Of a DNA stretch of 64,000 nucleotides, positions 30,801 through 52,405 are shown piece by piece. The stretch is from NCBI GenBank assembly GCA_009785095.1, contig WQXA01000001.1:3244-67243 (forward strand), read 5' to 3'. Under the pieces are notes generated by a model. It made no database searches. It was not told the DNA's origin and worked only from the letters and a program-made list of their open reading frames with translations. This DNA is from Candidatus Saccharimonadota bacterium (GTDB lineage: Bacteria; Patescibacteriota; Saccharimonadia; Saccharimonadales; Saccharimonadaceae). The first letter of the stretch is position 1, and every line of letters begins with the position of its first letter. The position numbers and the translations under genes were made by a program.

Positions 30801-33800
30801 TTATATATAAGTGACAATGGCGATTTTATTTTCCAAAAAGGCATGCAAAATGGCAGCGAGACCGAATCATTGAGCGCCTTTGAAGTTCGCGACATGACGG
30901 CGAATAGTATTTTCCGTGTTGATACTTTGAATGGCCAAGTGCAGATGAAAGCCATCGAAGACGCCTACGGTAGCACTGGCGCCTACGGCCAAACTCTGCA
31001 GATAGATGTTTACGGCAACCTTAAATGGGACAGCAATATTTGTCGGGATGATATTAACGCACCGTTCACCAACATTCCTTCTCAGGCTGTCGCCATCTTA
31101 TCCACCAATGACCGCTTCTTGTTCACAGTAGCAACCACCGCCAGCGGTGACGTATCCACGCCGGACAATGTCACGACTTACCTTGCTGGACAGACCATTC
31201 CGGCCAACACCGAAGTGGTGGTCTTGACCGACAATACCGAAGTCTATCTGACCGGTGACATCGTGACCGACGGATCCTGGATTAGCCAAGTCAAATTCTG
31301 TGGTGACCCCAATACCAAAGAATTACCAGTCGGCACTCACGCTCGCCAAGCTCTAACTTGGGACGGATCCGAATGGGTGGCTGGCGAATACATCACCGTT
31401 AACGGCCAGGACGCGGAGGCTTTCAAAGTCAGCGCCGACATGAACGACGCCGACAAAACGGTCTTTAACGTCGATTCGGTCAACGGCGTTGTGACGGTCG
31501 GCACAGCCGCCAACCCGGCTGACTTGATTGTTAACGGCGATACTATATTAAACGGTGACACTTACTTCAACGCTCCACTCCATCTGGACGCGGATGCTTT
31601 GGTTTATGATTACACCGGCAGTTCTGGCGATGCCGGCGATTACCTGAGGATAGACGAGAACGGCCGCCCAGTTTGGCAACCCATTCACGGTGATTTCGGT
31701 GACATCGGCGATTACCATGCTGATACAGACGGGATAGCACATGGGCAAGTGATGGTGTTTGATGCAATCGAAGACAAGTTTGTGCCAATGTACCTAGGTA
31801 TAAACCCAGACCCGGATGATGTCTGTAATACTCAACAAAATTTCAGCATTGCCGATCCTGGTACTACCGTAGATATTTTGGTGAACAGGAATACTATACA
31901 GAACCGACCGTCAGTAGAAATATTAAAGAAAGTAGATAGTACGACCACCAGTACCAAAGTACGGCAGTTTAATACGGCCAATATCACTAACTTTACTAAC
32001 AGCGACAGCAATAAATACTTAGATTGGAATGCTAGCCGAGTGCAACCACAAACTACCTATAACTATACGCCAGCTGATCTAAACAAGGTAATAAGTACTA
32101 CCTCGATTGGCGATATAAAGCTTTATGAAACTACTATTGATACGGATCTAAAGACATTCGAGCAACTAACGACCGGCTACGACACTAGCAATGCTAATGT
32201 TGACCAATCCGGCTCTCTCTTAGGGCAGATCAAGAGCCAATTTGCTGGTATTTCGTCTGGTGCTGGTGGTGGCTATAACGTTGTTACTCAAAATAATACG
32301 AGCCTACCAATAGAAATCCTACACTTTTATGGTAATTATACTTATTCTACGACCGGGCAAGCTCTAGTTGCTGGTGACAATGGTTTTGTTGAAACCTCTG
32401 CCACCGACGGAGCGATGCTAGTTTTATGGTTCCATAATAACCTAACAGTCAATTCTGGTGCTACCCTAACACCAAAAGTCCGTCGCAAAGGTATGACCAT
32501 AATAGTTGATGGCAAACTGACCAATAATGGTACAATCTCTATGACTGCTAGAGGGGCTAGTGCAACTGGGCAAGATGTACAACTATTCAAGAATTCTGAC
32601 AGTACATTTGAGTTGGTGCCGGCGGTAGGGGCGACAGGCGGAGCAACTGCATATACGGGGTGTAGAGGGTGGGCTCGAGGTAATAACGGAAGTTCCATAG
32701 TGATTAACGCTCGCGGTACTGGTGGCGGAGGCGGTGGTGCTATTGGTCCATGGGATACCTGCGGTTCATCATCTGGCGGAGCTGGCGGAGCTGGCACATC
32801 GTATTCTGGCGGTGCTGGTGGTGGTACGACTATTACGGATCGTATCAACCTCGCTGGCGGCGTGGGCTCCTCGACCGGTGGAGCTGGTGGCGCTTCTGTG
32901 GCTGGACGCGGGAATGCCTCTTCGGGAACAAAGCTCGTTGGTGGCGGTGCTGGCAACCCAGCCGGAGCCAACGCCGCGCAAGGAGCTGCCGCATCGGGCT
33001 GGATTGCTGGTGACGGTACGGGTGGGCTACTTAACGTCTACACTGAACAGTTGGTTAACACCGGCTCCATCGTCTCAGGAGGGGTGATTGGTACTAGGCC
33101 GATAGGCTCGGCTAGCGAAGTTGGTGTTGGTGGATCGAGCGGAGGCGGTAGCGTCAATATATTTGCTGCTAGCTCTACCAACGGAGTAATAAACGCAGGA
33201 GGGGGAATAACGGCTGGATTCAATTCGGGAATGGGTGGTGGCGATGGTGGCGCAGGTAACGCCACAATAACGCCTACCGCAGTCACCTATTACCTCTTTA
33301 CAATCAACGGAGCAACATATTATTATAATGCTGGCATGGGCTTCGTGCCATTTCCGGGCAACCCGAGCAAGAATTCCCTGACTTTAAGCGACTTCTTAAC
33401 CTACGGAGATATTAGTGAGGACATTAATTACATTGCTCCCAACGACCTGGCTAATCTACTCCAAAACGGCACAATTTTAACCGCCACTAACGCTGGCGCA
33501 CAAGACTTTACAGTCAGAGGCGCTCCGCAACCCCAACTAATTGTTGATCGCGCACCAGTCAACCTCGGCATGATCGATACGCTAATATCTACTACTTTAG
33601 GCGGCATAATTTCTGGCAATGGCGTGGCCACGGTGGTGGTTTCTGCCAATAATGGCATGACTTGGTATACGACTCACGATTTGGGTGCTACTTGGGTACA
33701 AGTCAGTCCTCTGGATGTAACTACGGTATTAAACGAGGGTATACCAAAGGATGAATTCGATCAATTAGCTCAAACTCTCTTGTCGGTACCAGGATTCGAA

Positions 33801-34844
33801 GATACCGATCGTCTACGCTTTGCTTACGTTTTAGATATGCAGACTATATCGGATTCTGCTCAGATTCAATACCTAGAACTAAATTACCAATCTTGGTTCT
33901 CGTGGATCAAGTCCGAAAACGACATAGACAATGACATGAATGGCGACTATACATATACTTATACCTCGCCGACCACTTTACGGGTAACATTCCATAAAAC
34001 TGGTGATTTCAAGGTTAACGTTATCGGTGAGCTGTGCAACCCGTTAACTCTGGCTCAAATTCCCGAGGGCGAAAAAACCGGCCAGACCATCATGTGGGAT
34101 AACGATACGCAGAGTTGGGTGCTGGGTGTCGGTTCTATCGCCAACTATGATGCCGGCAAAGGCATCGCCATCGACAGTAATGGTAATATCAACCTGTTGT
34201 ACATAGACGATAACGGCAACTTTGTTTTCAAAAATCTCGGTGGTGACACCGCTAATGTCTTCCAGGTGATTAATGCTGCTAACGCTCCGCTCTTTACCGT
34301 TGATGCCGTTACGGGTAATGTGATAGTTGGCTCTGGCGACACTTCGGATTCTACTGCCGTGGCTCTCGTACTAGATTCTTCTACAGTTGCTCCGTCAAAC
34401 CCCAAGAACGGCATGCTCTATTACGACACTACGCTAAATAAATTCCGCTGTTACGAGAACGGCGCCTGGGTTGACTGTATCCAAGAAGCGCCGTTTAGCA
34501 CTCGCTACAACAATTGGATCGCCGGTATGGAATACGACTTTGGCGACGGCCTTTATGGTCAGCGCCTCACGGGCAATATCACTGCAACTTCTGGTCTGCT
34601 TTCGGATATTACACTTGGTATATCTAACGTAGCCAGCATCGTAGATTACGGCGGCAGCATCGGCTTGGGCACGGGGTCAACCAAGCGCGGAATCATTCCA
34701 TTCGGCACATCAGACGGCAACGTTTCGCTTGAATTCGATTCTTCCGATAAAAGTATCCACTTGCTTACTATGGTCAACAATGCCCGCGATGGCACAACTA
34801 ATTCTGATTACAACATATGGCTTAAATACACCAAGACGCCGTAG
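27864..34844 (+). CDS. giant (2326 aa) membrane-anchored surface protein with collagen-like, Cys-pair repeat, Gly-rich and tail-fibre-like segments
   Basis: N-terminal TM helix. Two G-X-Y runs (28549..28632 and 28665..28740). About nine modules of C-x3-[EQ]-x-L-x-[WYF]...[WF]-x-C, often preceded by DTTY. GGxGGxG-rich block around aa 1590-1790. C-terminal NGMLYYDTTLNKFRCYENGAWVDC. Putative promoter TTGCTT-17-TATACT at 27824..27852. Confidence 0.8.
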   Translation: MVAISRAMKESTDKGFSDSGKNRRRLMLITRTLAALGGGFVIIFGLLYLFHSKDTTLTMPASLLDRQTLDVKLNVYSADGATDLLYSQDLTASVVNDGSQIKVNWRIPAEYTKRDTHVEVVSRELLAKEESYDSSCAYFVPTRSSGFISDLAGWNSLDENQRIGCLAPNDQYTSFLQAYNDISKTLYSGLYFDGGQVINAPNTSGDINLTDINNLINQAINEKALVFAGPQGSPGLRGSQGTPGSQGEKGEKGSPGDTTVVIDPGLVGEKGAKGDTGTKGDKGDKGDPGSDGVMGVTGGGLILYNHILSLKSCLDGEVLKYQDGVWDCAPDMVGTSGISLTCTEGDILKSVGGVWSCAAEGTGTSTDTTYLAGNGLILDSDTNTFSINALACQTDEYLTWNGTQFSCEADDDTNIDTDTTYGAKQYGGLVLDSNNDFALMLCSDAQVLKYSSAAYSGQGGWICAEDADTTYDLSGYLQIANLQDAIDALTPGYYNKDQIDSMFDDFTSTLPLSGLKVPQVVALESELSDASCTEAGDYWFVQDMDVTKPDHTGRAWCYEDGGGTLHLYKVYDDYSHPDNVSILFNSDGQLTVSESWLDSYLSSKDYATEDYVDNAIAGLDFTPYVTWTDVPQCSAGSFLTSTASGVLSCAAASTTDTTYTAGEGITIDPTRGNAISINAPTCTVGQYLTWNGASFLCQDDADTVFSLPDGTDDGDILIWDTATNSWVIGQQTGSGIDTTYAAKAGGGLKLEGSASPYEFSLIDCSAGQLLKFVYNPSTLENEWQCAVDLQGADQDPYLAGTGIVIDSSNFIGIDATECQTGEFLTWTASGFACLDASSSFTDNDEQVLTFDNTNCKLSISNGNTIYLNCGTESCPPVGALRINTNFFDPIVTDVSGAVWYRMDGQTISPSDQATYAAGFAGIINPDGTLPVQQNSDSLYFYLKVFGNCAPMVNTDTVYEEGKGISFTDLDGNGIPEINLLYISDNGDFIFQKGMQNGSETESLSAFEVRDMTANSIFRVDTLNGQVQMKAIEDAYGSTGAYGQTLQIDVYGNLKWDSNICRDDINAPFTNIPSQAVAILSTNDRFLFTVATTASGDVSTPDNVTTYLAGQTIPANTEVVVLTDNTEVYLTGDIVTDGSWISQVKFCGDPNTKELPVGTHARQALTWDGSEWVAGEYITVNGQDAEAFKVSADMNDADKTVFNVDSVNGVVTVGTAANPADLIVNGDTILNGDTYFNAPLHLDADALVYDYTGSSGDAGDYLRIDENGRPVWQPIHGDFGDIGDYHADTDGIAHGQVMVFDAIEDKFVPMYLGINPDPDDVCNTQQNFSIADPGTTVDILVNRNTIQNRPSVEILKKVDSTTTSTKVRQFNTANITNFTNSDSNKYLDWNASRVQPQTTYNYTPADLNKVISTTSIGDIKLYETTIDTDLKTFEQLTTGYDTSNANVDQSGSLLGQIKSQFAGISSGAGGGYNVVTQNNTSLPIEILHFYGNYTYSTTGQALVAGDNGFVETSATDGAMLVLWFHNNLTVNSGATLTPKVRRKGMTIIVDGKLTNNGTISMTARGASATGQDVQLFKNSDSTFELVPAVGATGGATAYTGCRGWARGNNGSSIVINARGTGGGGGGAIGPWDTCGSSSGGAGGAGTSYSGGAGGGTTITDRINLAGGVGSSTGGAGGASVAGRGNASSGTKLVGGGAGNPAGANAAQGAAASGWIAGDGTGGLLNVYTEQLVNTGSIVSGGVIGTRPIGSASEVGVGGSSGGGSVNIFAASSTNGVINAGGGITAGFNSGMGGGDGGAGNATITPTAVTYYLFTINGATYYYNAGMGFVPFPGNPSKNSLTLSDFLTYGDISEDINYIAPNDLANLLQNGTILTATNAGAQDFTVRGAPQPQLIVDRAPVNLGMIDTLISTTLGGIISGNGVATVVVSANNGMTWYTTHDLGATWVQVSPLDVTTVLNEGIPKDEFDQLAQTLLSVPGFEDTDRLRFAYVLDMQTISDSAQIQYLELNYQSWFSWIKSENDIDNDMNGDYTYTYTSPTTLRVTFHKTGDFKVNVIGELCNPLTLAQIPEGEKTGQTIMWDNDTQSWVLGVGSIANYDAGKGIAIDSNGNINLLYIDDNGNFVFKNLGGDTANVFQVINAANAPLFTVDAVTGNVIVGSGDTSDSTAVALVLDSSTVAPSNPKNGMLYYDTTLNKFRCYENGAWVDCIQEAPFSTRYNNWIAGMEYDFGDGLYGQRLTGNITATSGLLSDITLGISNVASIVDYGGSIGLGTGSTKRGIIPFGTSDGNVSLEFDSSDKSIHLLTMVNNARDGTTNSDYNIWLKYTKTP

Positions 34845-34886
34845 TTGTGATAAAACGATTAAGTAAAGAAGGGGAGGAGACAGGGT

Positions 34887-35321
34887 ATGGAACGGGCAAA
34901 TGTAGAGAAAGAGGTGGGGTTTAAAACTCGCAAGGTGCGCAATAAGAAGGGTCGTTTTGTTGTTGGGGTAATCATGGCCGTCGTCATAGTTGCTCTGGGC
35001 GTGTTTGCTTGGTTCCAATTCAAAGAGATCAAACAACTTCGTGACCCTAGTTATGCTGCCGAACAGGCCACCACTGATGCCGCGAAGCTCAAAGACAAAG
35101 TCGCCAAACTCATAGAGTTGCCCGATGAGACCGCTACGGTTGCCACTGTCACGGACGCGGAGAAGCTAAAGGGACAGGACTTCTTCAAGAACACCGAAAA
35201 TGGCGACAAAGTCCTCATCTTTCCCGCTGCCAAAAAAGCTGTTATCTACCGCGAATCCGACAATAAAGTCATAAACGCCGGCCCAATCATCCTCAGCTCT
35301 TCTTCTGTTAATGAACAGTAA
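34887..35321 (+). CDS. hypothetical small membrane-anchored protein
   Basis: Strong RBS GGGGAGGAG and one TM helix. Confidence 0.55.
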   Translation: MERANVEKEVGFKTRKVRNKKGRFVVGVIMAVVIVALGVFAWFQFKEIKQLRDPSYAAEQATTDAAKLKDKVAKLIELPDETATVATVTDAEKLKGQDFFKNTENGDKVLIFPAAKKAVIYRESDNKVINAGPIILSSSSVNEQ

Positions 35322-35336
35322 TTAATTTGCGTTTTT

Positions 35337-38300
35337 TTATCGACGACGAGCCGTAAGCTTATCGTGATACTCTCGCGCATACCTAATCAGTTGCGGCGGA
35401 AGACCCACTTTCTCGGCAAAAGAAAGGGGATTTGATATTACTTTTTCACCATCAACAATAGTCCGCTCAATCTGATCGCCAGATTCGGTGAGGACAATAC
35501 CTTGCACGCCCAAATCTGAGGCTTCTTCTGCGAAATCCAAAAAACCGTCATGATGGGTTGTCACCACTAAACGATGGCCGCGCGCGGCATTAGCCGCTAA
35601 TGTTGCGGCTGCGAAAGCGGCCTGGTACTTCGGAGATGTTGAACTGCCAATTTCGTCGGCAAAAGTGATGGCTGTTCTTGCTCCGGAAATTATTCGATGG
35701 TGGTCAGCCCAAACATCAACCTCGTGTTGACCGGCACTAGCCTCAACGTCCATTTCTTGGGCGATCCTACTGATGTATGAAATCCGCTCAAAATAAGGTA
35801 GGTTTCCATAGCTGGCCGGTACGACCCCCATTTTCATAGCGAGTAAAATGGCGTTGGTGATGTGCCTCGTGCCATAGGTTTTGCCTGCTGAGTGCTCGCC
35901 GCTGAGGGTAACGCCAGCCTGATCGCTCCGGATGCTATAATCAAAAGGCTGGTGCCTACTGCCGTGCCCGATGTCTTTCACTGAGTCGAGCCGTACTTCG
36001 CCGGTATCATTGAATTTGGCCAGCGCGTACTCGCCGGACGAGACACGTTTAGCCAAATCACCAAGGTATAGCAATCTATCGATAGCCTCGGCTATCTCTC
36101 TCGGTTCTTCTTGCCAAAAAGGATTTTCCGGACGTTGTTTTTTAGTCAACGGTGAATAATCAGAATGCCAGGCATCTGTGCTATTCGAATCGTCGACCGT
36201 TTCACTAGGAGTCGCCGTGCGATTATTGACGAGGTTTTGTAAATGCAAGATACCTTGACGCATATGAACGGAGTCTATCTGATCGCGATGCTGTTCTAGG
36301 CGTTCGAGCGCATCCATTATAGTAGGCTCCGACTGCATGAGTTCAATCAATTTTCCAATACCCGAACCCATTTTAATCGATGTAGAGATCAGTTCCGAGT
36401 TCGGGTTCTCCTGCCGCTCGCTTTCTCCAGTAACGTAGGCATGTTGATTACTGTCAAAAGTTGTTTCTGGTTGTGCTAGAACTTCAAGGATCGGCTTTAG
36501 GTCATCTCTAAGCCAAAACTTTTCAAGGCTACTGCCTTTAAAATCAATTTTACGTATTGCTGTCGAAGCTAATCTCGCTGCCTGTCTCAATCTCTCCTGG
36601 ATCTTATCTGTGTGCTGTTTGTTGATACCCTTAAGAAAGTAATATTGGCGACGGTTCTGACTGTTGTCGTAAAGTTGCAATTCTTGCTCATGAGCTGATC
36701 GCAATTTGTCAATTTGAGAGCTGAGAAATGATAGGGAATCACGTAATTTAGTAAAGTCTCCGAAACCAAGTAGCTCCAACAGCTCTACATAGGCTAAGGC
36801 CTTCGCTGCGAGACTAATATCACGCACTATTGGATAGTATGATGCATCTCCATCGAGATTAAAATGACCATTTTTCGAAAGCGAGGGTGTTACCTCGTCC
36901 GTTATTTTATGACCAAAACCATGCTGAAAGTTAAACGCCCAGATAGGATTAAGCTGTTGTAGCAGAACCGATGGATCTTTATTTCCAACTATCTTCAAGA
37001 AAGTCTCAAGGTTGACACCGAGCAAATTGAGATCATCAACCAAATCATCCAGTTCTCCATAACCGGCCAGCACCTCGATCGTCCGCCGCCGTTCGATTAA
37101 TTCCCTAAACTCAACTGGGTCGCTATTACACAGCAACTGTCGCTGCTCCGAACTCATGCCACTCAGTAGATCAGAATCCTTGCTCAATGGTACATAGGCG
37201 GGGCTGTGTGGTGTCTCGGGGAACATATATGCTAGACCACCGTCGCGCTCCATCATCTCTTCGCGTTTCGTTTGGTCGTAACCACTTTCCGGAACAGCCG
37301 GATAGTCCGGCGTGTAGCTAATTTTGAGGCTGCCATCCAAATAGTCTTCCATTAGACCAGCATAGTCTTCACCGAGTCCTCTTGAGCGCACTACATCTAT
37401 AAAACCAGAATCAGCCACGCCTTCTACCATCTGATATGGGTTGTCAGGGTCGTTTGTAAAGCTATAAAGTCCTGCGTCTTTCAATTTTTTTAGCATGCTC
37501 GCAACATGCTCGTTATGGGTTGCTAAACACACTAATCCGCCGTTTTCCTGCACATAGCGAGCGAACGCCAAATTCAAGGCTGCTTGCCAAAGCGGCGACG
37601 TCGTGGACATCGCTTCATCGAGATAAAAAACAGGTTTCTTGCCTATGTGACGGAGCGCTTCTTTCCATCTACGAAACTCATTAACGAGTGCGCCATGGTT
37701 ACCTATGCCGCGAGAATTGCACCGGCCAAGCATAGTGAAGGACGTATGCAACTCAAATTCGTTTGGTTGTTCGGCCGGAACCCAACCAAGTGCTTGTCGT
37801 GCTATCCGCGCACCGAAATCACGCTCCATGGCGAATGTTTTACCCGATCCATTTGCAGCAACTAGGACAACTATTGAGTGCTCATTAAACAATCCTTTGC
37901 CAAGGGTTTGCTCACCTTTGGGCTTCTGAAATTTCCAAGCGCCGGAGATCTCCGAATCAGTATCGCCCGGGATTGCTGGATGCCATTCGTCCTCAGCTAT
38001 CATTGAGGCTAACGTTGTGACTACTACCAAATCTACCATTCGAGCGAGAACATTATCTGCCCAATTACTAGGATTGTGGTTAAAATGTCCGAAAGTATCT
38101 CCACCAGAGTAGTATCGATTATCAGGGCGACCATATCCAGGAAGCCACGATAGAAATCTATCGTAAGGGTAAGAACCAAATTGACATCTTGCTTGCTCGT
38201 CACTCATCCAGGTTCGAACTTGATCAACTGAATCTCGATTTAACAAATTTCTTATACAGTATTCTAGATACTTCATACTTACAGCACTTGGCTCAAAAGT

Positions 38301-38843
38301 TTCATCAATAGTGGTAAGCAGACTAGCTATTCGTCCCAGACTTCCAACGTTTGTTGCGATGTCATCAAGAACAATATTCATGGCCTCGTTCGTTCGGTGA
38401 TGCTCATACCCTAGGTTTGGTACATAAATTTCTGACTCTGTCTCTAAACCCATCACATACATTTCATATAATGAGCTGTTATTCCAATTAGAATCATCCC
38501 CTGAAGGCCAAAATGCAGAACCTAAAGCATCCGCCAGTGCCATTGCTCCCACTAGAGCCTTTCTTAACTCTGGTAGCTGTTCTGATTCGGCGAGCATGCG
38601 AAGTATCTCCCTACGCTGCTCGAGCACAGTTGTATCAGAAATCGGTCTTGATATAATGTCATCTGCTATGTAAGATAATCGACTCTCCGTAAATATAGAT
38701 ACGTTACCTTCCTCCTCGGATGGTTCAAACGGTCGATAATCAGATTCATGTTGACCAGTGTAAAATCTAGCTGGCAGGGCTTCAAGTTGATTCGGGGGGG
38801 GGGGCGGCGGTAGCAATAGCAATGTTCGTGATATTGGTCGCAT
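35337..38843 (-). CDS. MutS-family protein with two tandem core-plus-ATPase (domain III/V-like) modules; C11 tract at codons 12-15
   Basis: Module 1: AANGSGKT (~37836..37859), VFYLDEAMSTTSP, LATH. Module 2: GEHSAGKT (~35880..35903), FADEIGSSTSP, VTTHH. Each is preceded by a helical segment with a MutS-core-like ...I..RR.I..L motif. I saw no mismatch-binding domain I and no Smr domain. Confidence 0.6.
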   Translation of the reverse strand: MRPISRTLLLLPPPPPPNQLEALPARFYTGQHESDYRPFEPSEEEGNVSIFTESRLSYIADDIISRPISDTTVLEQRREILRMLAESEQLPELRKALVGAMALADALGSAFWPSGDDSNWNNSSLYEMYVMGLETESEIYVPNLGYEHHRTNEAMNIVLDDIATNVGSLGRIASLLTTIDETFEPSAVSMKYLEYCIRNLLNRDSVDQVRTWMSDEQARCQFGSYPYDRFLSWLPGYGRPDNRYYSGGDTFGHFNHNPSNWADNVLARMVDLVVVTTLASMIAEDEWHPAIPGDTDSEISGAWKFQKPKGEQTLGKGLFNEHSIVVLVAANGSGKTFAMERDFGARIARQALGWVPAEQPNEFELHTSFTMLGRCNSRGIGNHGALVNEFRRWKEALRHIGKKPVFYLDEAMSTTSPLWQAALNLAFARYVQENGGLVCLATHNEHVASMLKKLKDAGLYSFTNDPDNPYQMVEGVADSGFIDVVRSRGLGEDYAGLMEDYLDGSLKISYTPDYPAVPESGYDQTKREEMMERDGGLAYMFPETPHSPAYVPLSKDSDLLSGMSSEQRQLLCNSDPVEFRELIERRRTIEVLAGYGELDDLVDDLNLLGVNLETFLKIVGNKDPSVLLQQLNPIWAFNFQHGFGHKITDEVTPSLSKNGHFNLDGDASYYPIVRDISLAAKALAYVELLELLGFGDFTKLRDSLSFLSSQIDKLRSAHEQELQLYDNSQNRRQYYFLKGINKQHTDKIQERLRQAARLASTAIRKIDFKGSSLEKFWLRDDLKPILEVLAQPETTFDSNQHAYVTGESERQENPNSELISTSIKMGSGIGKLIELMQSEPTIMDALERLEQHRDQIDSVHMRQGILHLQNLVNNRTATPSETVDDSNSTDAWHSDYSPLTKKQRPENPFWQEEPREIAEAIDRLLYLGDLAKRVSSGEYALAKFNDTGEVRLDSVKDIGHGSRHQPFDYSIRSDQAGVTLSGEHSAGKTYGTRHITNAILLAMKMGVVPASYGNLPYFERISYISRIAQEMDVEASAGQHEVDVWADHHRIISGARTAITFADEIGSSTSPKYQAAFAAATLAANAARGHRLVVTTHHDGFLDFAEEASDLGVQGIVLTESGDQIERTIVDGEKVISNPLSFAEKVGLPPQLIRYAREYHDKLTARRR
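38794..38804. repeat. homopolymer tract G11 (C11 on the gene strand)
   Basis: Counted directly. Read as PPPP within LLLPPPPPPPNQ. Confidence 0.95.
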
Positions 38844-39021
38844 TCTCTATATTGATAAGTGTTCAGAAATGAACCAGCAAACGTAAAGTTGGGTTTATCA
38901 ATATCTTGCCTTGAGGCTGTCGGTATAGTAAAATCTGGGGCTCTACGCATAGCAAAAACCTAAAAATCACACTTTAGTTTGTGCTATGTTACATTATTTT
39001 GTACTATCTGTCAAATATCAT

Positions 39022-40053
39022 TTATATTCCGAGTAGCAGTCGCGCGAAACTGAAATAAGCGAAAATTCCGAATATGTCGGCGATGATGGTGACCAAAGGA
39101 GATGAGATCAGGGCAGGGTCGATCCGGACGGCTTTGGCGATAATCGGGAGCAGCGTACCTAATACTTTGGCAAATATTACGGTGGCGAGCAGCCCTAGCC
39201 ACAACACGAATCCTAGCACGATGTTCTGTTCGACGACCATGATGTATGTGAAAATAACTAATCCTAGCAGCGCGCCGGAAACTATCGAGACCATGAATTC
39301 TTTGCTAATGGCTCGGAAATATTGTCGCTGCGTGATTTCGCCGATGGCCATGGATCGGATTATGACGGTGGCAGCCTGTGAACCACCCGCGCCCGCGATC
39401 CCCATAATCATAGGAATAAAAGTAACCAGAATCGGCATTTTGAGAAACGATTCTTCGTAGCGCGCCACTAGCATGCCGGCCAGCAGCGCCGCAAACACCA
39501 AGAATATCAGCCACGGCAATCGTGATTTGACGTGTTGCCAGATTGACGTTGCTAGGTAAGGGCGGTCTTTCTTGGTGCCGACAATACCCGCGCCGGCCGA
39601 TAGCTCGCGGGTGGCTTCGCGCTCAATGATGTCGGGGATTTGCTCGATAGTTACTATGCCGATCAATTTGCGGCTCTTAGCGCTATCGACCACAGGCAGC
39701 GATGGCAAAAGCTCGCGACGCATAATCGCCGCTACGGTCATATTATCGGTCGTCGGCTCGATAACGGTGACATTTGGGTTATAAATTTTTTTGAGGCTCT
39801 CGCCCGTGTCGGACAGAATCAAGCGGCGAATTGAGACTTTGCCAATCACCGCGCCAGCCTCATCGGTGATATAGCAATTAGTCAGCGCAATAGAATTCTT
39901 GCCGATGTCGCGAATGCGATCCAGCGCCTGCTGCACCGTCATATCTAGTTTAAGATCGACAAAATCCTTGGTCATGACTGCGCCAACGCTGTTCGATTGA
40001 CGACTCAGTTTCGTTGATTTGGAGTTGGTTTGTTTTTCCGCGGACTTCTTCAT
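39022..40053 (-). CDS. mgtE: magnesium transporter MgtE (CBS pair plus TM domain, short N-terminus)
   Basis: Two CBS-like repeats followed by a 5-TM MgtE-type domain (MGIAGAGGSQAATVIIRSMAIGEI, PLVTIIADIFG). Confidence 0.8.
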   Translation of the reverse strand: MKKSAEKQTNSKSTKLSRQSNSVGAVMTKDFVDLKLDMTVQQALDRIRDIGKNSIALTNCYITDEAGAVIGKVSIRRLILSDTGESLKKIYNPNVTVIEPTTDNMTVAAIMRRELLPSLPVVDSAKSRKLIGIVTIEQIPDIIEREATRELSAGAGIVGTKKDRPYLATSIWQHVKSRLPWLIFLVFAALLAGMLVARYEESFLKMPILVTFIPMIMGIAGAGGSQAATVIIRSMAIGEITQRQYFRAISKEFMVSIVSGALLGLVIFTYIMVVEQNIVLGFVLWLGLLATVIFAKVLGTLLPIIAKAVRIDPALISSPLVTIIADIFGIFAYFSFARLLLGI

Positions 40054-40056
40054 ATT

Positions 40057-40476
40057 CTACTCACCAGTATAATGCAAAATCTGCCAAATCACGCCGAACT
40101 TGTCCGCGACCATTCCGTATAATTCAGAAAAGAACGGTTTTTGCAGATCCATCAGCACTTTTCCGCCCTCTTTTAGTTCATTGAACAGCCTAGTTACTTC
40201 GTCCGTGCTGTCGGCGCTGACAGTCGGCGAAACGTTGTTGCCCACCACGAGCGGCGCGTTCGACGGCATATCCATCATCATGAGCACACTGTCACCGACT
40301 TTTACGCCCGCATATACGATTTTCTGCTTGTCTTCCTCAGCAACAGGAAAATTCGGGTCCGGCGGAACGCTATCATAAGTCATCATCTCACCCACGTCAG
40401 TTTTAAACACCGTGGCGTAAAATTCTGCTGCCTCGCGGCAATTACCGTCAAAGTTTATAAACATTTCTAGTTTCAT
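40057..40476 (-). CDS. VOC/PhnB-like (3-demethylubiquinone-9 3-methyltransferase domain) protein
   Basis: MKLEMFINFDGNCREAAEFY... PhnB-like N-terminus. Start ATG 40476 follows AAGGAGGGGGG. Confidence 0.6.
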   Translation of the reverse strand: MKLEMFINFDGNCREAAEFYATVFKTDVGEMMTYDSVPPDPNFPVAEEDKQKIVYAGVKVGDSVLMMMDMPSNAPLVVGNNVSPTVSADSTDEVTRLFNELKEGGKVLMDLQKPFFSELYGMVADKFGVIWQILHYTGE

Positions 40477-40531
40477 AAAAGCCCCCCTCCTTATTATCGT
40501 CACTAATACATTGTAACACGCCCAAGCTAAT

Positions 40532-42154
40532 TTATTGTTGAACGAGATTTCGTCGTCGCCAAGATACAAAACCGAGCAGGGCGGCCGTCGCTGCTACGGC
40601 TGTGGCGGCGGCTAGCGGTGCGAACTTGACGGCTTCGGACGGCACCGAGGCGAAATGGCTGAGCGGCGAAATATTCATGATCCACTGATCAACCCGCATC
40701 AGCGGCCCGATCCACGACATAAAGGCAATATAGCCGTAAATCACCCACAGCACCAGCCCGGCCAGGCGCGGCAGCAGCCCAAACAGCGCCACGTACAATC
40801 CGGCCAGCAGCGCCGCCATCGGCCAATAACTGAGCGCGCCAAAGACGTAATCGCTCATATTGACCGACCAACTAGAAAAAGTATTAACACAGAGCGCCAT
40901 AACAAAACCGCTGATCGCCAGCATAACCGCCGCGCCGACCAGCGTCGTTACCAAATGCAGCGATAGCCACCTGACCCGCGACAGACTGGTCGCCAGCAGA
41001 TTCTCGACATGACCCGAACCCTCCTCAGCCCGAGCCCGCGACAGGGCATGAATCACATAAGCCAAAACCATCAACAGCGTGATCATGAGCATAGCCGATA
41101 AAAACGTCGGAATCATCGCGCCACCCCCGCCCATTTCTGCGATCATCCGGGCTAGTTCGGGCGAGCTGTCGTAAACTTTGCTCATTTGCGGCACCAGCGC
41201 ACCGATCACCGACACCAAAGCCAGCGCGCCGCACATCCAACCGATGAAAATATTCTTTTGCAGATAAACAGTCAGACCCGGCGCCGTGCGCAGGAATTTC
41301 CCGGCTCGCGCCCGGCCAGCCCGCGACGGCAAAATCCCGCGGCTTTCGTCACGCAAATTTAATAGCACAAAAGCCACGCCAACCGCCACCACCGCGACAA
41401 CGAGCGGCACCAACAGCGGCCACCACTCCGGGAAAGTTAAACTACGTGTCGCCTGGTTCCAACCAAACGGACTAAGCCACGACGGCCAGGCCGCCTGTAA
41501 AACACCGTTCGAACCGCCGATTTCCCCCAAGAAATCGCCAATGCCGCGCAACATAAAGGCCGCGCCGATCAAAATCGCCGCCATGCCGTTGGCCGATCGC
41601 GTCGACTCAAATAGCTGCGCCAACACCGCCGCGATGCACGCCCAAACGAAACCAAAAGCAGCAAATCCGGCCGCGAACAACCAAACCGAACCGTTGCCCC
41701 AACCGTCGTACAACGCGCCCATGCCGGCGCCCATCAACGCCGCCATCACCACGTTCATAACCAACGCCACGATCAACGCCGCCGACAAACCGGCGCCGCG
41801 ATGGACTCGCCCGCTCATGATCAATTCCTGGGCGCCCATTTCTTCGTTTTGACGCGTGTGACGCATGACAAACAACGTGTTCATAAAAGCAATCACCAAC
41901 CCCCACCACAGCACTGTTTCGAGCGTAAACAATGAACCAAAATTCGGCCCGTCCATCGATCCGACCAAAAACCGCCCGGCCGGCATAGTGTTGAATTGTT
42001 GATACAAAGTATTCAACGTCTCCGGCGCGGCGTAGGTCCCCTTTAGAATCGGGATCATATAGAGCAACATGCCGGTTATCGACAGGATCCAAACCGGCAA
42101 TTTGACGCGATCACGCCGCAAGATTAATTTAATTAGATTCCATGTGCCGGTCAT
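40532..42154 (-). CDS. ABC-2-type exporter permease (multi-TM)
   Basis: About 12 hydrophobic segments. Downstream of the ABC ATPase gene, with an ATGA overlap with the NUDIX gene. Confidence 0.65.
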   Translation of the reverse strand: MTGTWNLIKLILRRDRVKLPVWILSITGMLLYMIPILKGTYAAPETLNTLYQQFNTMPAGRFLVGSMDGPNFGSLFTLETVLWWGLVIAFMNTLFVMRHTRQNEEMGAQELIMSGRVHRGAGLSAALIVALVMNVVMAALMGAGMGALYDGWGNGSVWLFAAGFAAFGFVWACIAAVLAQLFESTRSANGMAAILIGAAFMLRGIGDFLGEIGGSNGVLQAAWPSWLSPFGWNQATRSLTFPEWWPLLVPLVVAVVAVGVAFVLLNLRDESRGILPSRAGRARAGKFLRTAPGLTVYLQKNIFIGWMCGALALVSVIGALVPQMSKVYDSSPELARMIAEMGGGGAMIPTFLSAMLMITLLMVLAYVIHALSRARAEEGSGHVENLLATSLSRVRWLSLHLVTTLVGAAVMLAISGFVMALCVNTFSSWSVNMSDYVFGALSYWPMAALLAGLYVALFGLLPRLAGLVLWVIYGYIAFMSWIGPLMRVDQWIMNISPLSHFASVPSEAVKFAPLAAATAVAATAALLGFVSWRRRNLVQQ

Positions 42155-42600
42155 CGCTCGTCACTCCCTTCTGCTAAAATATCTAACGGGTAAATCTTCC
42201 CATCTCGTACGAGTTTGGCTATGTCCGCCAACTCGCTAAATCGCGTATCTAATCCACCAATATCATCAATCGGCACGAATCTAATATCCAAAGTTTCCTC
42301 CTCAGGCGCGGCGCGGTTTTCGTGGATCAAGCTACCTTTGAAAAAGAAAATCACGGCCATTCGATCGTCAAAATCTTTTTTGCGAATTGATAGAAGCCCG
42401 TTAATTTTCACGTCGTAACCGGTTTCTTCCTTAGTCTCGCGAATCGCGCCCTCGATCAAACTCTCGCCCGGTTCGACATGACCGGCCGGAAAGTTCCACT
42501 TGCCGCGCTGACCGTAATTGTTTTTGCCTTCCTGAATCATCAGAATCTGGCCGTCCTTTTCGACCGAAGTACTAACGAAAACCATAGAAGGCACGGTCAT
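42151..42600 (-). CDS. NUDIX hydrolase
   Basis: Nudix box GHVEPGESLIEGAIRETKEETGY. Start ATG 42600 lies immediately after the stop of the ATPase gene. Confidence 0.85.
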   Translation of the reverse strand: MTVPSMVFVSTSVEKDGQILMIQEGKNNYGQRGKWNFPAGHVEPGESLIEGAIRETKEETGYDVKINGLLSIRKKDFDDRMAVIFFFKGSLIHENRAAPEEETLDIRFVPIDDIGGLDTRFSELADIAKLVRDGKIYPLDILAEGSDER

Positions 42601-42602
42601 TT

Positions 42603-43310
42603 TTATGTCTCGCCCTCGTACTTGCTCAGGAAGACTTTTTGGAGATTTTCGTGCTCGCGTTTTAGCTCGGCCAGGGTATAGACGCCGGCGGTTTTGCCCT
42701 CGCGAATGATCGTGACGCGATCGCACAGCGCCTCGGCCTCGCTCAAAATGTGGCTAGAGAGCAGGATTGTCTTGCCGGCTTGTTTTAGGGCGCGAATTTC
42801 GGCCTGGAAAGTTTGCTCCATCAGCGGGTCGAGTCCGGATGTCGGCTCGTCCAAAATATAGAGCGGCACATCGCTGGCTAATGCTGCGACGACGGCGACT
42901 TTTTGACGATTGCCTTTTGAATAAGTCCGGAATTTCTTGGTCGGGTCGAGTTGGAATTTGGCGAGCAATTCTTTTCGGCGCTTTTCGTCCAAACCACCCC
43001 GCAAAGACCCCAACAGATCAATAATCTCACCACCGGTCAGATTCGGCCAAAAGTTGACATCACCCGGCACGTAGGCCAATTTCTCGTGCAATTTGACGGC
43101 GTTTTTCCACGGATCCTGGCCGAACAATTGGACGTCGCCGGATTTTTTGCGCAACAGCCCGAGAACGATGCGGATAGTTGTTGATTTGCCGGCGCCGTTT
43201 GGCCCGAGGAAACCGTGAATCTCGCCCTCGTGGACATCGAGATCAAAACCGTCGAGCGCTTTTACTTTACCGAAATATTTGTGTAAGTCCTTGATAGATA
43301 TTATGCTCAT
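42603..43310 (-). CDS. ABC transporter ATP-binding protein
   Basis: [18 protein letters not shown] signature variant, [12 protein letters not shown]. Confidence 0.9.
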
Positions 43311-43464
43311 AACGGTTACGATTATAGCACAGAATATGATAAAATAGACAATGCTCGATTCTGCTAAGGAAAAAGAGCAGGCCAGCTCGGTTTTTCGCGA
43401 GCGAAAAACTCGGCTTTGCCGACTGGCCGCCGAGAAAAAACGTAGTTTTGTCTCGGGGATTTAT

Positions 43465-43540
43465 CGGGGCTTGGCGCAGTTGGTAGCGCGCCGCGCTGGG
43501 GGTGCGGAGGTCGCCCGTTCGAGTCGGGTAGCCCCGACCA
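43465..43540 (+). tRNA. tRNA-Pro (anticodon GGG), C1:G72, G37, CCA encoded
   Basis: Folded by hand: acceptor CGGGGCT/AGCCCCG, D-arm GCGC-AGTTGGTA-GCGC, anticodon stem CCGCG/TGCGG with loop CTGGGGG, T-arm GCCCG-TTCGAGT-CGGGT. Confidence 0.9.
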
Positions 43541-43576
43541 CGGATTTGACGCAGTTCGATTTGTCTGACATCAGGG

Positions 43577-43605
43577 TTGACTTTAGCGAGATTGAAAAAT
43601 ATAAT
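43577..43605 (+). promoter_or_regulatory. consensus promoter TTGACT-17-TATAAT, 8 nt upstream of ATG 43614
   Basis: Hexamers and spacing read directly. Confidence 0.6.
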
Positions 43606-43613
43606 TGAAGGAA

Positions 43614-43924
43614 ATGAGACAGGAAAGTTACCCCCCCCCTTCCGGCCTGACCTCGACAGGATCGCGGAACTCGGAAGAGGGTTTCATGGCGGGGATGCGT
43701 CTCTTGTCCCTATCGCGTCTTCCGGATTCCCGAACCTTTCCCCGTACCCGCATGAGCTGAGCGACGAAAAGGTTTATGAAGCGGTTCTAGGCGCTGAAGG
43801 AATTGGGATTACGATGACACCGAAGGGCGTAGATAAGTATGTGAAAACGGTTACGCCTCCAGATCCGAGGGATTTCGAACCCATAGGTCGCATGGCCAGA
43901 TTTCTTCTTGGGCGGTTCATTTAA
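43614..43924 (+). CDS. hypothetical small protein (orphan); apparently out of phase at the C9 tract if ATG 43614 is the start
   Basis: ATG 43614 (frame 0) enters the C9 tract after 5 codons. The 100-codon open frame that ends at 43924 is in another frame and would be joined with C10 or C7. The only in-frame start is TTG 43577, which is itself the -35 hexamer. Confidence 0.4.
43631..43639. repeat. homopolymer tract C9
   Basis: Counted directly. Confidence 0.95.
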
Positions 43925-43958
43925 TCTCGAGAGTCTCTGAGGCTACGTTACTACGAAT

Positions 43959-43987
43959 TTGACGAAACGGTTTTGGCAATGTATAAT
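43959..43987 (+). promoter_or_regulatory. promoter TTGACG-17-TATAAT
   Basis: Read directly. Followed by RBS GAGAGGAGAG and ATG 44013. Confidence 0.55.
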
Positions 43988-44012
43988 GGAACTCCATGAG
44001 AGGAGAGATTTC

Positions 44013-45524: not shown

Positions 45525-45563
45525 ATGTGGTAGAATGTTTTTAAATCTTAAAGAAGGAGAGTG

Positions 45564-46262
45564 ATGAGATTATTACTAAAACTTAGCGGCGAGCAATTAG
45601 CGGGCGATAATCCGCGCGGTTTCGATATCGAACGTGCTAAATGGATCGCGGCCGAAGTCCATAAAGCCCAAGACACCGGCGCCGAGGTGGTGGTGACTGT
45701 CGGGGCGGGGAACTTTGTGCGCGGCGAGTATTTCGCGGGGGCGAATGTCCGACAAGTCACGGCCGACAACATGGGCATGTTGGCGATCGTTATCAACACG
45801 CTGGCTTTGGCGGATGTTTTTAATAGCGTCGGCGTGCAGGCAGCGGTCTTGAGCAACATTAGAGCCGACCAAGTCGTCGACCAATACACTCATCGGCGGG
45901 CGCTGTCGCACTTGGCCAAAGGTCGCGTGGTCATCGTTGGCGGCGGCACTGGTCGGCCGTACGTGACAAGCGATTCGGCGGCGGTGTCGTTGGCACTGGA
46001 GCTCGATTGCGATGTGGTGCTAAAAGCCACCAAAGTCGACGGCGTGTTCGATTCTGATCCGGAAAAGAATCCGGCGGCCAAGAAAATCAATGCGATGTCG
46101 CTGTCCGAAGCCGTCGAAAATCCGAAAATCAAAGTCATGGACAAAGCCGCCCTCGGCCTGGCGGCTGATTTCAACAAACCAATCGTCGTGTTTGAACTCT
46201 TAAAAGAAGGCAACATCAGGAAAATCGCCGAAGGCAAAACCGTCGGCACTAGGATTGAGTAA
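45564..46262 (+). CDS. pyrH: UMP kinase
   Basis: LLKLSGEQL, VVVTVGAGNFVRG, IVGGGTGRPYVTSDSAA. Confidence 0.92.
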   Translation: MRLLLKLSGEQLAGDNPRGFDIERAKWIAAEVHKAQDTGAEVVVTVGAGNFVRGEYFAGANVRQVTADNMGMLAIVINTLALADVFNSVGVQAAVLSNIRADQVVDQYTHRRALSHLAKGRVVIVGGGTGRPYVTSDSAAVSLALELDCDVVLKATKVDGVFDSDPEKNPAAKKINAMSLSEAVENPKIKVMDKAALGLAADFNKPIVVFELLKEGNIRKIAEGKTVGTRIE

Positions 46263-46267
46263 CGTTA

Positions 46268-49546: not shown

Positions 49547-49612
49547 ACTCCCTCCTTCGAAGCTCCTTTAAAACTACTAAACATTGTACACTAAAATGTC
49601 AAAAAGTTAATC

Positions 49613-49641
49613 TTGACTTTTTGTGCGCGTTGTGATAAAGT
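49613..49641 (+). promoter_or_regulatory. promoter TTGACT-17-TAAAGT, 9 nt upstream of ATG 49651 (leaderless-type)
   Basis: Read directly. Confidence 0.5.
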
Positions 49642-49650
49642 GTTAGCATT

Positions 49651-50624: not shown

Positions 50625-50668
50625 CTTCATGACTTTCTTTTCCCCTCAAACTCCTGTAAAATAGAACC

Positions 50669-52360: not shown

Positions 52361-52376
52361 TTATTTTATAACGCTA

Positions 52377-52405
52377 TTGACTTTTTAACAAATCTGTGTT
52401 ACAAT
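52377..52405 (+). promoter_or_regulatory. consensus promoter TTGACT-17-TACAAT
   Basis: Read directly. Followed by RBS GGAGTG and ATG 52425. Confidence 0.55.

What the first reader, a model, noticed from the sequence alone, without database searches (positions are those of the whole stretch)
35337..38950. Single-chain tandem MutS-like protein carrying its own poly-C switch: a possible phase-variable modulator of repeat instability
**Protein architecture**
- The 1168-aa protein contains two complete MutS-type core-plus-ATPase modules in one chain.
- Module 1 motifs are Walker A AANGSGKT, Walker B LDEAMSTTS and ATH. Module 2 motifs are GEHSAGKT, ADEIGSSTS and TTHH.
- MutS normally works as a functionally asymmetric dimer, so this looks like a covalent pseudo-dimer.
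- I see no mismatch-recognition domain I and no Smr nuclease.

**The tract**
- A C11 tract (38794..38804) lies at codons 12-15.
- A second ATG at 38950 opens another frame that also runs through the tract (ORF 38666..38950).
- A 1-nt change would therefore switch between a 94-aa product and an N-terminally extended full-length protein.

**Why it matters**
MutS-family proteins act on slipped-strand intermediates. A phase-variable MutS paralog in a region dense with homopolymer switches could tune the switching rate globally. This last step is speculation.
Basis: partly seen in the sequence, partly recalled or inferred. Interest (0 to 1): 0.68.

Follow-up and report, generated by a model that had tools for sequence, protein, structure and literature searches.

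The report
Switchable single-chain double MutS ATPase
A Saccharimonadales (candidate-phyla-radiation) bacterium encodes an uncharacterised protein made of two MutS-type ATPase modules in one chain, and in this strain a variable run of C bases near the gene's true start puts it out of frame, so the gene looks stochastically switchable; nothing shows that it controls repeat instability.

Summary
- ORF 35337..38843(-) encodes 1168 aa. C11 lies at 38794..38804, and a second frame opens at ATG 38950.
- Both halves are MutS core-plus-ATPase modules. Module 2 hits Pfam MutS_V. A module-1 profile hits MSH2, MutS and MutS2 at E 1e-28 to 1e-13. The two modules align to each other at E 9e-24. The AF2 model's best PDB matches are almost all MutS proteins.
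- No domain I or II and no Smr nuclease were detected.
- The family has at least 143 clusters (50% identity), mostly 1100-1600 aa. The few members with a source name come from CPR bacteria, and no curated family or paper was found.

New result: the upstream frame encodes the family's native N-terminus (DxNFTFAGxF). As sequenced, C11 is therefore an OFF state, and C9 or C12 restores a 1203 or 1204 aa protein.

An independent assembly of the same strain has C10, also OFF. In about 34 kb of overlap, the only indels lie at the three longest G/C tracts. The window holds ten G/C runs of 9 nt or more, against about 0.2 pattern matches expected, mostly near gene 5' ends.

The gene is therefore very probably a contingency locus. 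The idea that it tunes repeat switching is unsupported. The protein lacks a mismatch-recognition domain, and Saccharibacteria are reported to lack MutS and MutL.

The parts
38986..39014 (-). Best sigma-70-like promoter match in the region (TTGACA-17-TAACAT, 10 of 12). It lies between the stop of the upstream MgtE gene and ATG 38950.
   Evidence: This is a consensus match only and is consistent with ATG 38950 being the real start.
38805..38950 (-). Native 5' coding segment (48 codons, MRRAPDFTIPTASRQDIDKPNFTFAGSFLNTYQYRECDQYHEHCYCYR). With C11 it is in a different frame from the main ORF.
   Evidence: Its DKPNFTFAGSFLN motif aligns with the N-termini of homologues P0003 (61% over 23 aa), P0005, P0004, P0006, P0007 and P0010.
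38794..38804 (-). Poly-C tract (C11). It acts as a frame switch placed in a variable-length linker of the protein.
   Evidence: C9 or C12 gives a 1203 or 1204 aa ORF, and C10 or C11 truncates it. The ENA assembly of the same strain has C10. Homologues have no tract here.
38666..38950 (-). 94-aa ORF produced from the native start in the C11 state. After the tract it reads out of frame.
   Evidence: Only the part before the tract resembles the homologues.
37284..38666 (-). Module 1 (residues 60-520 of the 1168 aa ORF): MutS domain III-like helical core with a much reduced clamp, plus a domain V ATPase. Walker A is at 37836..37859, Walker B at 37596..37622 and the ATH motif at 37509..37523.
   Evidence: The profile of this half hits MSH2 residues 344-845 at E 5.8e-28, Taq MutS at E 3e-24 and MutS2 at E 6e-23. 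All 37 significant PDB hits are MutS family. hhalign against module 2 gives E 8.7e-24.
37122..37283 (-). Conserved inter-module linker (residues 521-574, ...GGLAYMFPE..HSPAYVPLS.D...).
   Evidence: Alignments. The AF2 model is confident across this stretch.
35340..37121 (-). Module 2 (residues 575-1168): helical core with long lever helices, plus a MutS domain V ATPase. Walker A is at 35877..35900, Walker B at 35634..35660 and the TTHH motif at 35547..35561.
   Evidence: Pfam MutS_V scores E 2.6e-10, 41 bits against a cutoff of 30.2. There are weak NCBIfam matches to KamC, MutS2 and MutS1 and PDB sequence hits to MutS and MutS2.

Best explanation
**What the gene encodes**
- It belongs to an uncharacterised family whose few named members come from CPR bacteria.
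- One polypeptide carries two diverged copies of the MutS core (domain III-like helices) plus the ABC-type ATPase (domain V).
- It has no mismatch-binding domain I, no connector domain II and no Smr nuclease.
- Both modules keep the Walker A lysine, the Walker B Asp-Glu, the MutS 'TH' histidine and, family-wide, the signature-like Ser. In this subfamily module 1 has Gly at that position.

**Inferred mechanism (not shown)**
- The two modules most likely pack head-to-head into an intramolecular, asymmetric equivalent of the MutS dimer, with two composite ATP sites.
- The protein would then act as an ATP-driven clamp on a nucleic-acid substrate, as MutS2-type proteins do.
- The substrate is unknown. 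Branched DNA and stalled ribosomes are the precedents.

**The switch in this strain**
- A C-tract inserted in a poorly conserved linker about 49 codons after the native start works as a slipped-strand switch.
- C9 or C12 gives the full protein (1203 or 1204 aa).
- C10 or C11 ends translation from the native start after 55 or 94 codons. At best an N-terminally truncated product from an internal start remains.
- Both sequenced alleles (C11 in the window, C10 in another assembly) are OFF.
For: **Architecture**
- Pfam MutS_V hits module 2 above its gathering score.
- The module-1 profile matches only MutS-family chains in the PDB, E 5.8e-28 to 5e-13, then noise at E 0.027 and above.
- Module 1 versus module 2 by hhalign: probability 99.6%, E 8.7e-24. 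The halves align over 330 columns.
- The AF2 model (pLDDT 83.5, pTM 0.77) has MutS, MutSbeta, MutSalpha and MutS2 as 48 of its top 50 PDB matches, at E 1.7e-11 to about 3e-9.
- Distant members show two Pfam MutS_V stretches at E 1e-23 to 1e-40.
- Catalytic residues are conserved in 38-40 of 40 sequences in both modules, apart from the module-1 signature Ser at 34 of 40.
- Both modules share STTSP-x-(D/Y)Q after Walker B where canonical MutS has GRGTSTYDG. This points to an internal duplication after the split from canonical MutS.
- No MutS_I, MutS_II or Smr match at E up to 10.

**Family size**
143 clusters at E of 1e-30 or better, with modal length 1100-1300 aa.

**Switch**
- Frames were reconstructed in silico.
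- The upstream frame matches homologue N-termini.
- A promoter-like site lies before ATG 38950.
- C10 versus C11 is the only indel in 20.5 kb between two assemblies.
- The other two 11-nt tracts also differ between assemblies (11 versus 9 and 9; 11 versus 10), while the 9-10-nt tracts do not.
- Tracts are strongly over-represented: 18 pattern matches (10 tracts) against 0.2 expected. Most lie within about 180 nt (25-180 nt) of the start of the longest ORF through them.
Against: - Only two alleles were seen and both are OFF. No in-frame (C9 or C12) allele was observed.
- Homopolymer length is the quantity most prone to sequencing and assembly error, and I had no reads.
- All three 11-nt tracts in the window are in OFF states, which could hint at a systematic length error in this assembly.
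- Head-to-head packing of the modules could not be inspected, because no coordinates or PAE were available.
- No conserved gene neighbourhood exists to suggest a pathway.
- About ten long relatives begin with signal-peptide-like segments, which sits oddly with a purely DNA-bound role for the whole family.
Confidence: 0.7

Rival explanations
1. The frame break is a homopolymer sequencing or assembly error. The real gene would be intact (C9 or C12), constitutively expressed and not phase-variable.
For: Two assemblies give two different lengths, neither in frame. All three 11-nt tracts of the window are OFF, while two of them are ON in the other assembly. This could reflect a length bias in one pipeline.
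Against: Across about 34 kb of overlap the assemblies differ by only a few substitutions plus indels at exactly the three longest G/C tracts. No indel occurs at any 7-10-nt run. Long runs are G/C only, ten of them, mostly near gene 5' ends. Neither feature is what random homopolymer error produces. Even in the assembly where the other two genes are in frame, this gene is not.
Confidence: 0.15
2. The gene is a decaying pseudogene, inactivated by slippage in a tract that arose by chance. It is not a maintained switch.
For: It is out of frame in both available sequences. The tract is lineage-specific and absent from the four homologue loci read here.
Against: The downstream frame stays open for 3.5 kb, and every residue that is invariant or nearly invariant across the family is intact. 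The promoter-like site and the native start are intact. The same genome keeps many such tracts at gene starts, two of which are ON in one assembly and OFF in another.
Confidence: 0.1
3. The OFF states are leaky. RNA-polymerase slippage on the C-run, or a -1 ribosomal shift on C CCC CCC, would restore the frame in a fraction of products. The tract would then set the expression level rather than acting as a binary switch.
For: Going from the upstream frame to the main frame at C11 needs exactly a -1 shift, equivalent to one extra C. The run is a formal X XXY YYZ slippery site. Transcriptional slippage on long homopolymers is established knowledge (my own knowledge, not tested here).
Against: No stimulatory downstream structure was looked for or found. 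C10 would need a different shift. This reading is compatible with DNA-level switching rather than an alternative to it.
Confidence: 0.1
4. One reading: the protein acts on slipped-strand intermediates, and its ON/OFF state tunes the switching rate of all homopolymer tracts in the genome.
For: The protein belongs to the MutS family. It sits in a genome rich in G/C tracts. Saccharibacteria are reported to lack canonical MutS and MutL (PMC8406219), so it may be the only MutS-family protein present.
Against: No domain I, the element that recognises mismatches and insertion loops in MutS1 and MSH proteins, was detected. No MutL partner is reported in the phylum. The four related loci read here (17.7, 23.5, 3.4 and 4.3 kb) carry no G/C run of 8 nt or more, so the protein does not co-occur with tract-rich DNA in the cases examined.
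Confidence: 0.05

Closest known systems
MutS2 (bacterial and plastid; for example B. subtilis MutS2/RqcU and T. maritima MutS2, PDB 7qv3 and 9kce)
   Same: MutS core plus domain V ATPase without domains I and II. MutS2 chains are among the best sequence and fold matches.
   Different: MutS2 is a homodimer of single-module chains and carries a C-terminal Smr nuclease. This protein has two modules in one chain and no Smr match was found.
MutS1 / MSH2-MSH3-MSH6 mismatch-repair proteins
   Same: They share the ATPase motifs and the start of domain III. MSH2 residues 344-845 align with module 1 at E 5.8e-28. Eukaryotic MSH heterodimers are asymmetric, as a tandem protein would be.
   Different: No domain I (mismatch/IDL binding) or domain II was detected, and the clamp region is much shorter. 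After Walker B the sequence reads STTSPxDQ instead of GRGTSTYDG. The phylum reportedly has no MutL partner.
MutS3A/B, MutS4A/B and MutS5 paralogues (Lin, Nei and Ma 2007, PMC2190696)
   Same: These are MutS-family proteins reduced to the core/ATPase part and of unknown function. MutS4A and MutS4B are adjacent genes with overlapping stop and start codons, that is, a two-paralogue unit. This is the nearest precedent for a two-module machine.
   Different: They are separate polypeptides, whereas here the two modules are one chain. I had no MutS3-5 sequences, so relatedness was not tested.
KamC (lysine 5,6-aminomutase reactivase ATPase, NCBIfam NF052383)
   Same: It is the best NCBIfam hit to module 2 (E 9.2e-12). 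It shows that MutS-type ATPases can have roles away from DNA.
   Different: The score is 44.5 bits against a cutoff of 300, so the similarity is only at domain level. No aminomutase genes lie nearby.
Poly-G/C contingency loci of Campylobacter, Neisseria and Haemophilus
   Same: An intragenic G/C homopolymer near the 5' end whose length sets the reading frame. Many such tracts occur per genome. The genome background reportedly lacks MutS and MutL, as in Campylobacter and Helicobacter (general properties from PMC8355987 abstract).
   Different: The host is an environmental Saccharimonadales bacterium, and the switched gene is a MutS-family ATPase rather than a surface-structure gene. Switching has not been observed experimentally.

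Membership tests
MutS family (Pfam PF00488, MutS domain V ATPase) | Significant match to the MutS_V model or to MutS proteins | tested here: met
   Module 2 scores 41 bits against a gathering score of 30.2. The module-1 profile hits 37 MutS-family PDB sequences at E 6e-28 to 5e-13. Relatives carry two MutS_V stretches.
MutS family (Pfam PF00488, MutS domain V ATPase) | Four ATPase motifs: Walker A GxxxxGK(S/T), signature-like S-x-F..E, Walker B DE, and the TH motif | tested here: met
   All four are present in both modules and conserved in 34-40 of 40 family members. The window protein has Gly instead of the signature Ser in module 1.
MutS family | Helical core (domain III) preceding the ATPase | tested here: met
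   The module-1 profile aligns from MSH2 residue 344, the domain III region. The P..D...I..R(Q/R) motif occurs at the start of both modules. Pfam MutS_III reaches only 32.1 bits against 34.1 in a relative, so the support is profile-level rather than curated-threshold.
MutS family | MutS-like fold | tested here: met
   With the AF2 model (pLDDT 83.5), 48 of the top 50 Foldseek PDB hits are MutS, MutSalpha, MutSbeta or MutS2. The other two are the ABC protein SUR2B.
MutS1 / MSH mismatch-repair proteins | N-terminal mismatch-recognition domain I (PF01624) and connector domain II (PF05188) | tested here: not met
   No match at E up to 1 for the whole protein or E up to 10 for the halves. The region before module 1 is only about 95 residues in the full-length form.
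MutS1 / MSH mismatch-repair proteins | A MutL partner in the genome | not testable with these tools
   Only 64 kb of the genome is available. Jaffe et al. 2021 report no MutS or MutL in Saccharibacteria (PMC8406219).
MutS2 | C-terminal Smr endonuclease domain | tested here: not met
   There is no Smr match, and the chain ends about 5 residues after the MutS_V match.
MutS4A/MutS4B-type paired paralogues | Two adjacent genes, each with one core/ATPase module; sequence affinity to the MutS4 clade | not tested
Here the two modules are one ORF with a conserved linker.
Single-chain pseudo-dimer | The two ATPase modules face each other, forming two composite nucleotide sites | not testable with these tools
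A pTM of 0.77 for the whole chain suggests a defined inter-module arrangement but does not show which one.
Simple-sequence-repeat contingency locus (phase-variable gene) | A homopolymer of about 8 nt or more within or just upstream of the coding region, whose length changes switch the frame | tested here: met
   C11 lies 146 nt after the native start. C9 or C12 is ON, and C10 or C11 is OFF.
Simple-sequence-repeat contingency locus (phase-variable gene) | Tract length polymorphism among otherwise near-identical sequences | tested here: met
   C11 versus C10 is the only indel in 20.5 kb at 99.985% identity. Two other tracts also vary. Caveat: these are assemblies, not reads, and no ON allele was seen.
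Simple-sequence-repeat contingency locus (phase-variable gene) | Observed reversible switching within a population | not testable with these tools
   This needs read-level data or culture.

The most novel reading that the evidence does not exclude
Saccharibacteria and other CPR bacteria, having lost MutS1 and MutL, would rely on a single-chain MutS pseudo-heterodimer as their only MutS-family genome- or translation-surveillance ATPase. In this lineage that protein is itself under stochastic ON/OFF control by a poly-C tract. The population would then always contain subpopulations that differ in recombination, repair or repeat-mutation rate: a heritable, reversible 'evolvability switch' in an ultra-small episymbiont.
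Probability: 0.1. Interest if true: 0.85.

Novelty: new variant of a known kind. Interest (0 to 1): 0.55.

Why it matters
**The protein family**
- MutS proteins work as dimers whose two ATPase sites are functionally asymmetric.
- A natural family that hard-wires the two halves into one chain would be a clean system for studying that asymmetry. Here both sets of catalytic residues are kept, but one signature serine is lost in a subfamily.
- The family is sizeable, with at least 143 clusters at 50% identity. It has no curated family model in Pfam or NCBIfam, and I found no literature on it.
- Its closest members come from a phylum reported to lack canonical mismatch repair. It is therefore a candidate for whatever replaces or supplements that function.

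**The tracts**
- The window gives evidence that an environmental Saccharimonadales bacterium uses poly-G/C contingency loci. This strategy is best known from host-adapted pathogens.

**What has not been shown**
- Neither the biochemical function nor real switching has been demonstrated.

Tried and rejected
- **Single-sequence Pfam on the N-terminal half.** It gave only weak P-loop hits. A family profile was needed.
- **Second homologue search with the alignment.** It returned nothing new.
- **The search for related loci with broad alignments.** It failed for lack of conserved stretches. With the close subfamily it found only the already known Saccharimonadales MAG.
- **Gene-neighbourhood comparison across six homologue loci.** No conserved partner gene emerged, so guilt-by-association gave no function.
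- **PADLOC.** Only insignificant hits, so a defence-system reading was dropped.
- **More alleles of the tract.** The exact flank is absent from JGI metagenome contigs. The neighbouring MgtE gene led only to the same ENA contig.
- **Model coordinates.** None are exposed to scripts, so intramolecular dimer geometry could not be measured.
- **Paralogy among tract-bearing genes.** None was found.
- **Literature searches.** No paper turned up on a tandem or single-chain MutS or on homopolymer phase variation in Saccharibacteria.
- **Giant relatives.** These (3-5.8 kaa; one fused to B12-radical-SAM and methyltransferase domains) were considered as functional clues. I set them aside because they may be stop-codon read-through artefacts of gene calling in lineages with altered genetic codes.


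Full report
**1. Observation**

The minus strand carries a 1168 aa ORF at 35337..38843 and a 94 aa ORF at 38666..38950 in another frame. Both run through a C11 tract (G11 on the plus strand) at 38794..38804. The only correction is minor: the C-run covers codons 14-17 of the 1168 aa ORF, within a Pro run at codons 12-17.

**2. The upstream frame is the native N-terminus**

The closest homologues are 41-60% identical. One of them, P0003, is from a Candidatus Saccharimonadales MAG.
- They begin with a conserved D-x-N-F-T-F-(A/G)-G-x-F motif that the 1168 aa ORF lacks.
- That motif (DKPNFTFAGSFLN) is encoded in the window by the frame opened at ATG 38950.
- The 48-codon segment before the tract matches the P0003 N-terminus at 61% identity over 23 residues, and also matches P0005, P0004 and P0006.
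- Changing the tract in silico to C9 or C12 fuses the frames into 1203 or 1204 aa proteins that are collinear with the homologues. C10 and C11 stop after 55 and 94 codons.
- The tract sits in a linker whose length and sequence vary among homologues, so one proline more or fewer should be tolerated.
- The best sigma-70-like match in 4 kb (TTGACA-17-TAACAT, 39014..38986) lies just upstream of ATG 38950.

The sequenced state is therefore an OFF state, or at best yields an N-terminally truncated product from ATG 38843. The database gene call for this locus is a 1086 aa product starting even further downstream. That start would remove the nearly invariant P67 and R77 at the beginning of module 1.

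**3. Is the tract variable?**

An independent assembly (ENA ERZ27264051, contig k141_2568677, 46.7 kb) covers window 28078..62361 in two fetched pieces.
- Over 20.5 kb around the gene it is 99.985% identical. The only differences are two substitutions and a tract length of C10 instead of C11.
- The same contig has G9 at 49760 where the window has G11. A Logan contig from SRR5215205 also has G9 there.
- The same contig has G10 at 57015 where the window has G11.
- The 9-10-nt tracts at 43631, 24712 and 23467 are identical in every assembly that covers them.

In about 34 kb, every indel therefore lies at one of the three longest G/C tracts. For two of those tracts the alternative length restores a gene: a 323 aa hypothetical protein and a 114 aa cupin protein. 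This is the behaviour expected of slipped-strand contingency loci. The caveats are that these are assemblies rather than reads, and that both alleles seen for the MutS-like gene are OFF.

**4. Genomic background**

- The window (GC 50.6%) has ten G/C runs of 9 nt or more and no A/T run longer than 7 nt.
- The G9 pattern matches 18 times against 0.20 expected.
- Most tracts lie within about 180 nt (25-180 nt) of the start of the longest ORF that runs through them. They fall in unrelated, mostly Pfam-less genes.
- The four homologue loci read here have no tract at this position and no G/C run of 8 nt or more. These are two Saccharimonadales-type loci (L001, L002) and two short contigs (L004, L005).
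- The tracts are therefore a feature of this lineage, not of the gene family.
- Jaffe et al. 2021 found no MutS or MutL in Saccharibacteria (PMC8406219). By analogy with Campylobacter and Helicobacter, that would favour homopolymer instability. The analogy is my inference.

**5. Architecture**

*Module 2 (residues 575-1168)*
- It matches Pfam MutS_V above the gathering threshold (41 bits against 30.2).
- It matches KamC, MutS2 and MutS1 weakly in NCBIfam and MutS and MutS2 weakly in the PDB.

*Module 1 (residues 60-520)*
- It is not recognised as a single sequence.
- A 12-sequence profile of it hits MSH2 residues 344-845 at E 5.8e-28, Taq MutS domain V at E 3e-24 and B. subtilis MutS2 at E 6e-23.
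- All 37 significant PDB hits are MutS-family. The next hit is noise at E 0.027.

*The two modules together*
- They align to each other with hhalign probability 99.6% and E 8.7e-24. The alignment extends over 330 columns into the helical regions.
- Both begin with the P..D...I..R(Q/R) helix motif typical of the start of MutS domain III.
- An AF2 model built on a 40-sequence alignment is confident (pLDDT 83.5, pTM 0.77). Of its top 50 PDB matches, 48 are MutS, MutSalpha, MutSbeta or MutS2, at E 1.7e-11 to about 3e-9. The other two are the two-NBD ABC protein SUR2B.
- Distant relatives show two Pfam MutS_V stretches at E 1e-23 to 1e-40.
- Across 40 members the Walker A Lys, the Walker B Asp-Glu and the TH His are conserved in 39-40 sequences in both modules. 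The signature-like Ser is conserved in 34 (module 1) and 38 (module 2). The window protein and its close relatives have Gly at the module-1 position, which implies one degenerate composite site if the modules pair as ABC ATPases do.
- Both modules share STTSP-x-(D/Y)-Q after Walker B where MSH2 has GRGTSTYDG. I read this as an internal duplication after divergence from canonical MutS.
- Domains I and II and Smr were not detected. The MSH2 alignment needs large insertions in MSH2 across the clamp region, so module 1 has only a rudimentary clamp.

**6. Family**

- A profile search of 1.84 billion representatives finds 143 clusters at E of 1e-30 or better and 898 at E of 1e-10 or better.
- Among the listed hits the modal length is 1100-1300 aa, with a second group at 1400-1600 aa.
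- The few named members are labelled 'hypothetical protein' or 'DNA mismatch repair ATPase MutS'. They come from Candidatus Saccharimonadales, Candidatus Peribacteraceae and an ACD 'uncultured bacterium' bin.
- No specific Pfam or NCBIfam model covers the family. Six literature searches found no description of it.
- Gene neighbourhoods differ in every locus examined.

**7. How it most likely works**

*Shown*
- It is a two-module MutS-type ATPase with intact catalytic motifs.
- It is a frame-switching, length-polymorphic C-tract in the native coding region.

*Inferred*
- The modules form an intramolecular asymmetric ATPase pair.
- The protein acts as an ATP-gated clamp on nucleic acid, like MutS2.
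- Slipped-strand mispairing toggles expression.

*Unknown*
- The substrate.
- I consider mismatch or IDL repair unlikely, because there is no domain I and no reported MutL.
- A MutS2-like role on branched DNA or on stalled ribosomes is the best precedent, but the Smr effector domain is absent.

**8. Comparison with known systems, and verdict**

- The protein is a member of the MutS superfamily. It is not a member of MutS1 or MutS2.
- The nearest precedent for a two-paralogue unit is the adjacent MutS4A/MutS4B gene pair (PMC2190696). Relatedness to it was not tested.
- The switch belongs to the well-known class of homopolymeric contingency loci.
- Overall this is a new architectural variant of a known family, placed under a known type of switch in an unusual organism.
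The suggested role in tuning repeat instability remains speculation, with some evidence against it.

Noticed in passing
window 17628, 19830, 20574, 21121, 23467, 24712, 43631, 49760, 57015 (tract starts): Nine further G/C homopolymers of 9-11 nt, six of them within 7 kb (17.6-24.8 kb). Most lie within about 180 nt (25-180 nt) of the start of the longest ORF through them, in unrelated and mostly Pfam-less genes. In the window the 9-10-nt tracts leave their ORFs open, while all three 11-nt tracts are frame-breaking.
   Followed up: partly
window 49760..49770 and 57015..57025; loci L011 and L012: Tract lengths differ between assemblies of the same strain. At 49760 it is G11 in the window against G9 in both ENA and Logan, where G9 gives a 323 aa ORF. 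At 57015 it is G11 against G10, where G10 gives a 114 aa cupin-domain ORF. A T/C substitution lies next to the 57015 tract.
   Followed up: yes
whole window: Nine of the ten long tracts are poly-G on the + strand whatever the orientation of the gene. GC skew is zero to positive across the window, so this may be a replication-strand bias of the tracts.
   Followed up: partly
window 27864..34844 (+): A 2326 aa ORF lies next to the gene, separated from it by one small ORF. It has an N-terminal hydrophobic segment, collagen-like G-X-Y repeats and Gly-rich stretches, and is probably a giant surface protein. One of the two substitutions between assemblies (33386) lies in it.
   Followed up: no
proteins P0026, P0054, P0058, P0060, P0063, P0070, P0071, P0075, P0076, P0084, P0092: About ten longer relatives of the tandem MutS family begin with signal-peptide- or membrane-anchor-like hydrophobic N-termini. 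That is unexpected for a DNA-bound ATPase.
   Followed up: no
protein P0030 (3368 aa) and its cluster; P0055, P0063, P0093: Giant gene products embed the tandem MutS_V unit. P0030 also carries B12-binding, radical-SAM and SAM-methyltransferase domains. This recalls the B12-enzyme reactivase KamC, but may be a read-through artefact of gene calling.
   Followed up: partly
loci L009 and L010 (protein P0009): The gene in these loci does not translate to the recorded protein with the standard bacterial code. This suggests a lineage with an altered genetic code, possibly UGA-recoding CPR.
   Followed up: no
window 43465..43540 and 43631..43639: A tRNA-Pro(GGG) gene lies about 90 nt from a C9 tract. 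This tRNA reads the CCC codons that make up the poly-C tract of the MutS-like gene.
   Followed up: no
window about 55950..56235 (L011 15283..15567): A 94 aa GIY-YIG domain ORF lies directly downstream of the ribonucleotide reductase gene (52987..55875). It may be a free-standing homing-endonuclease-like gene.
   Followed up: no
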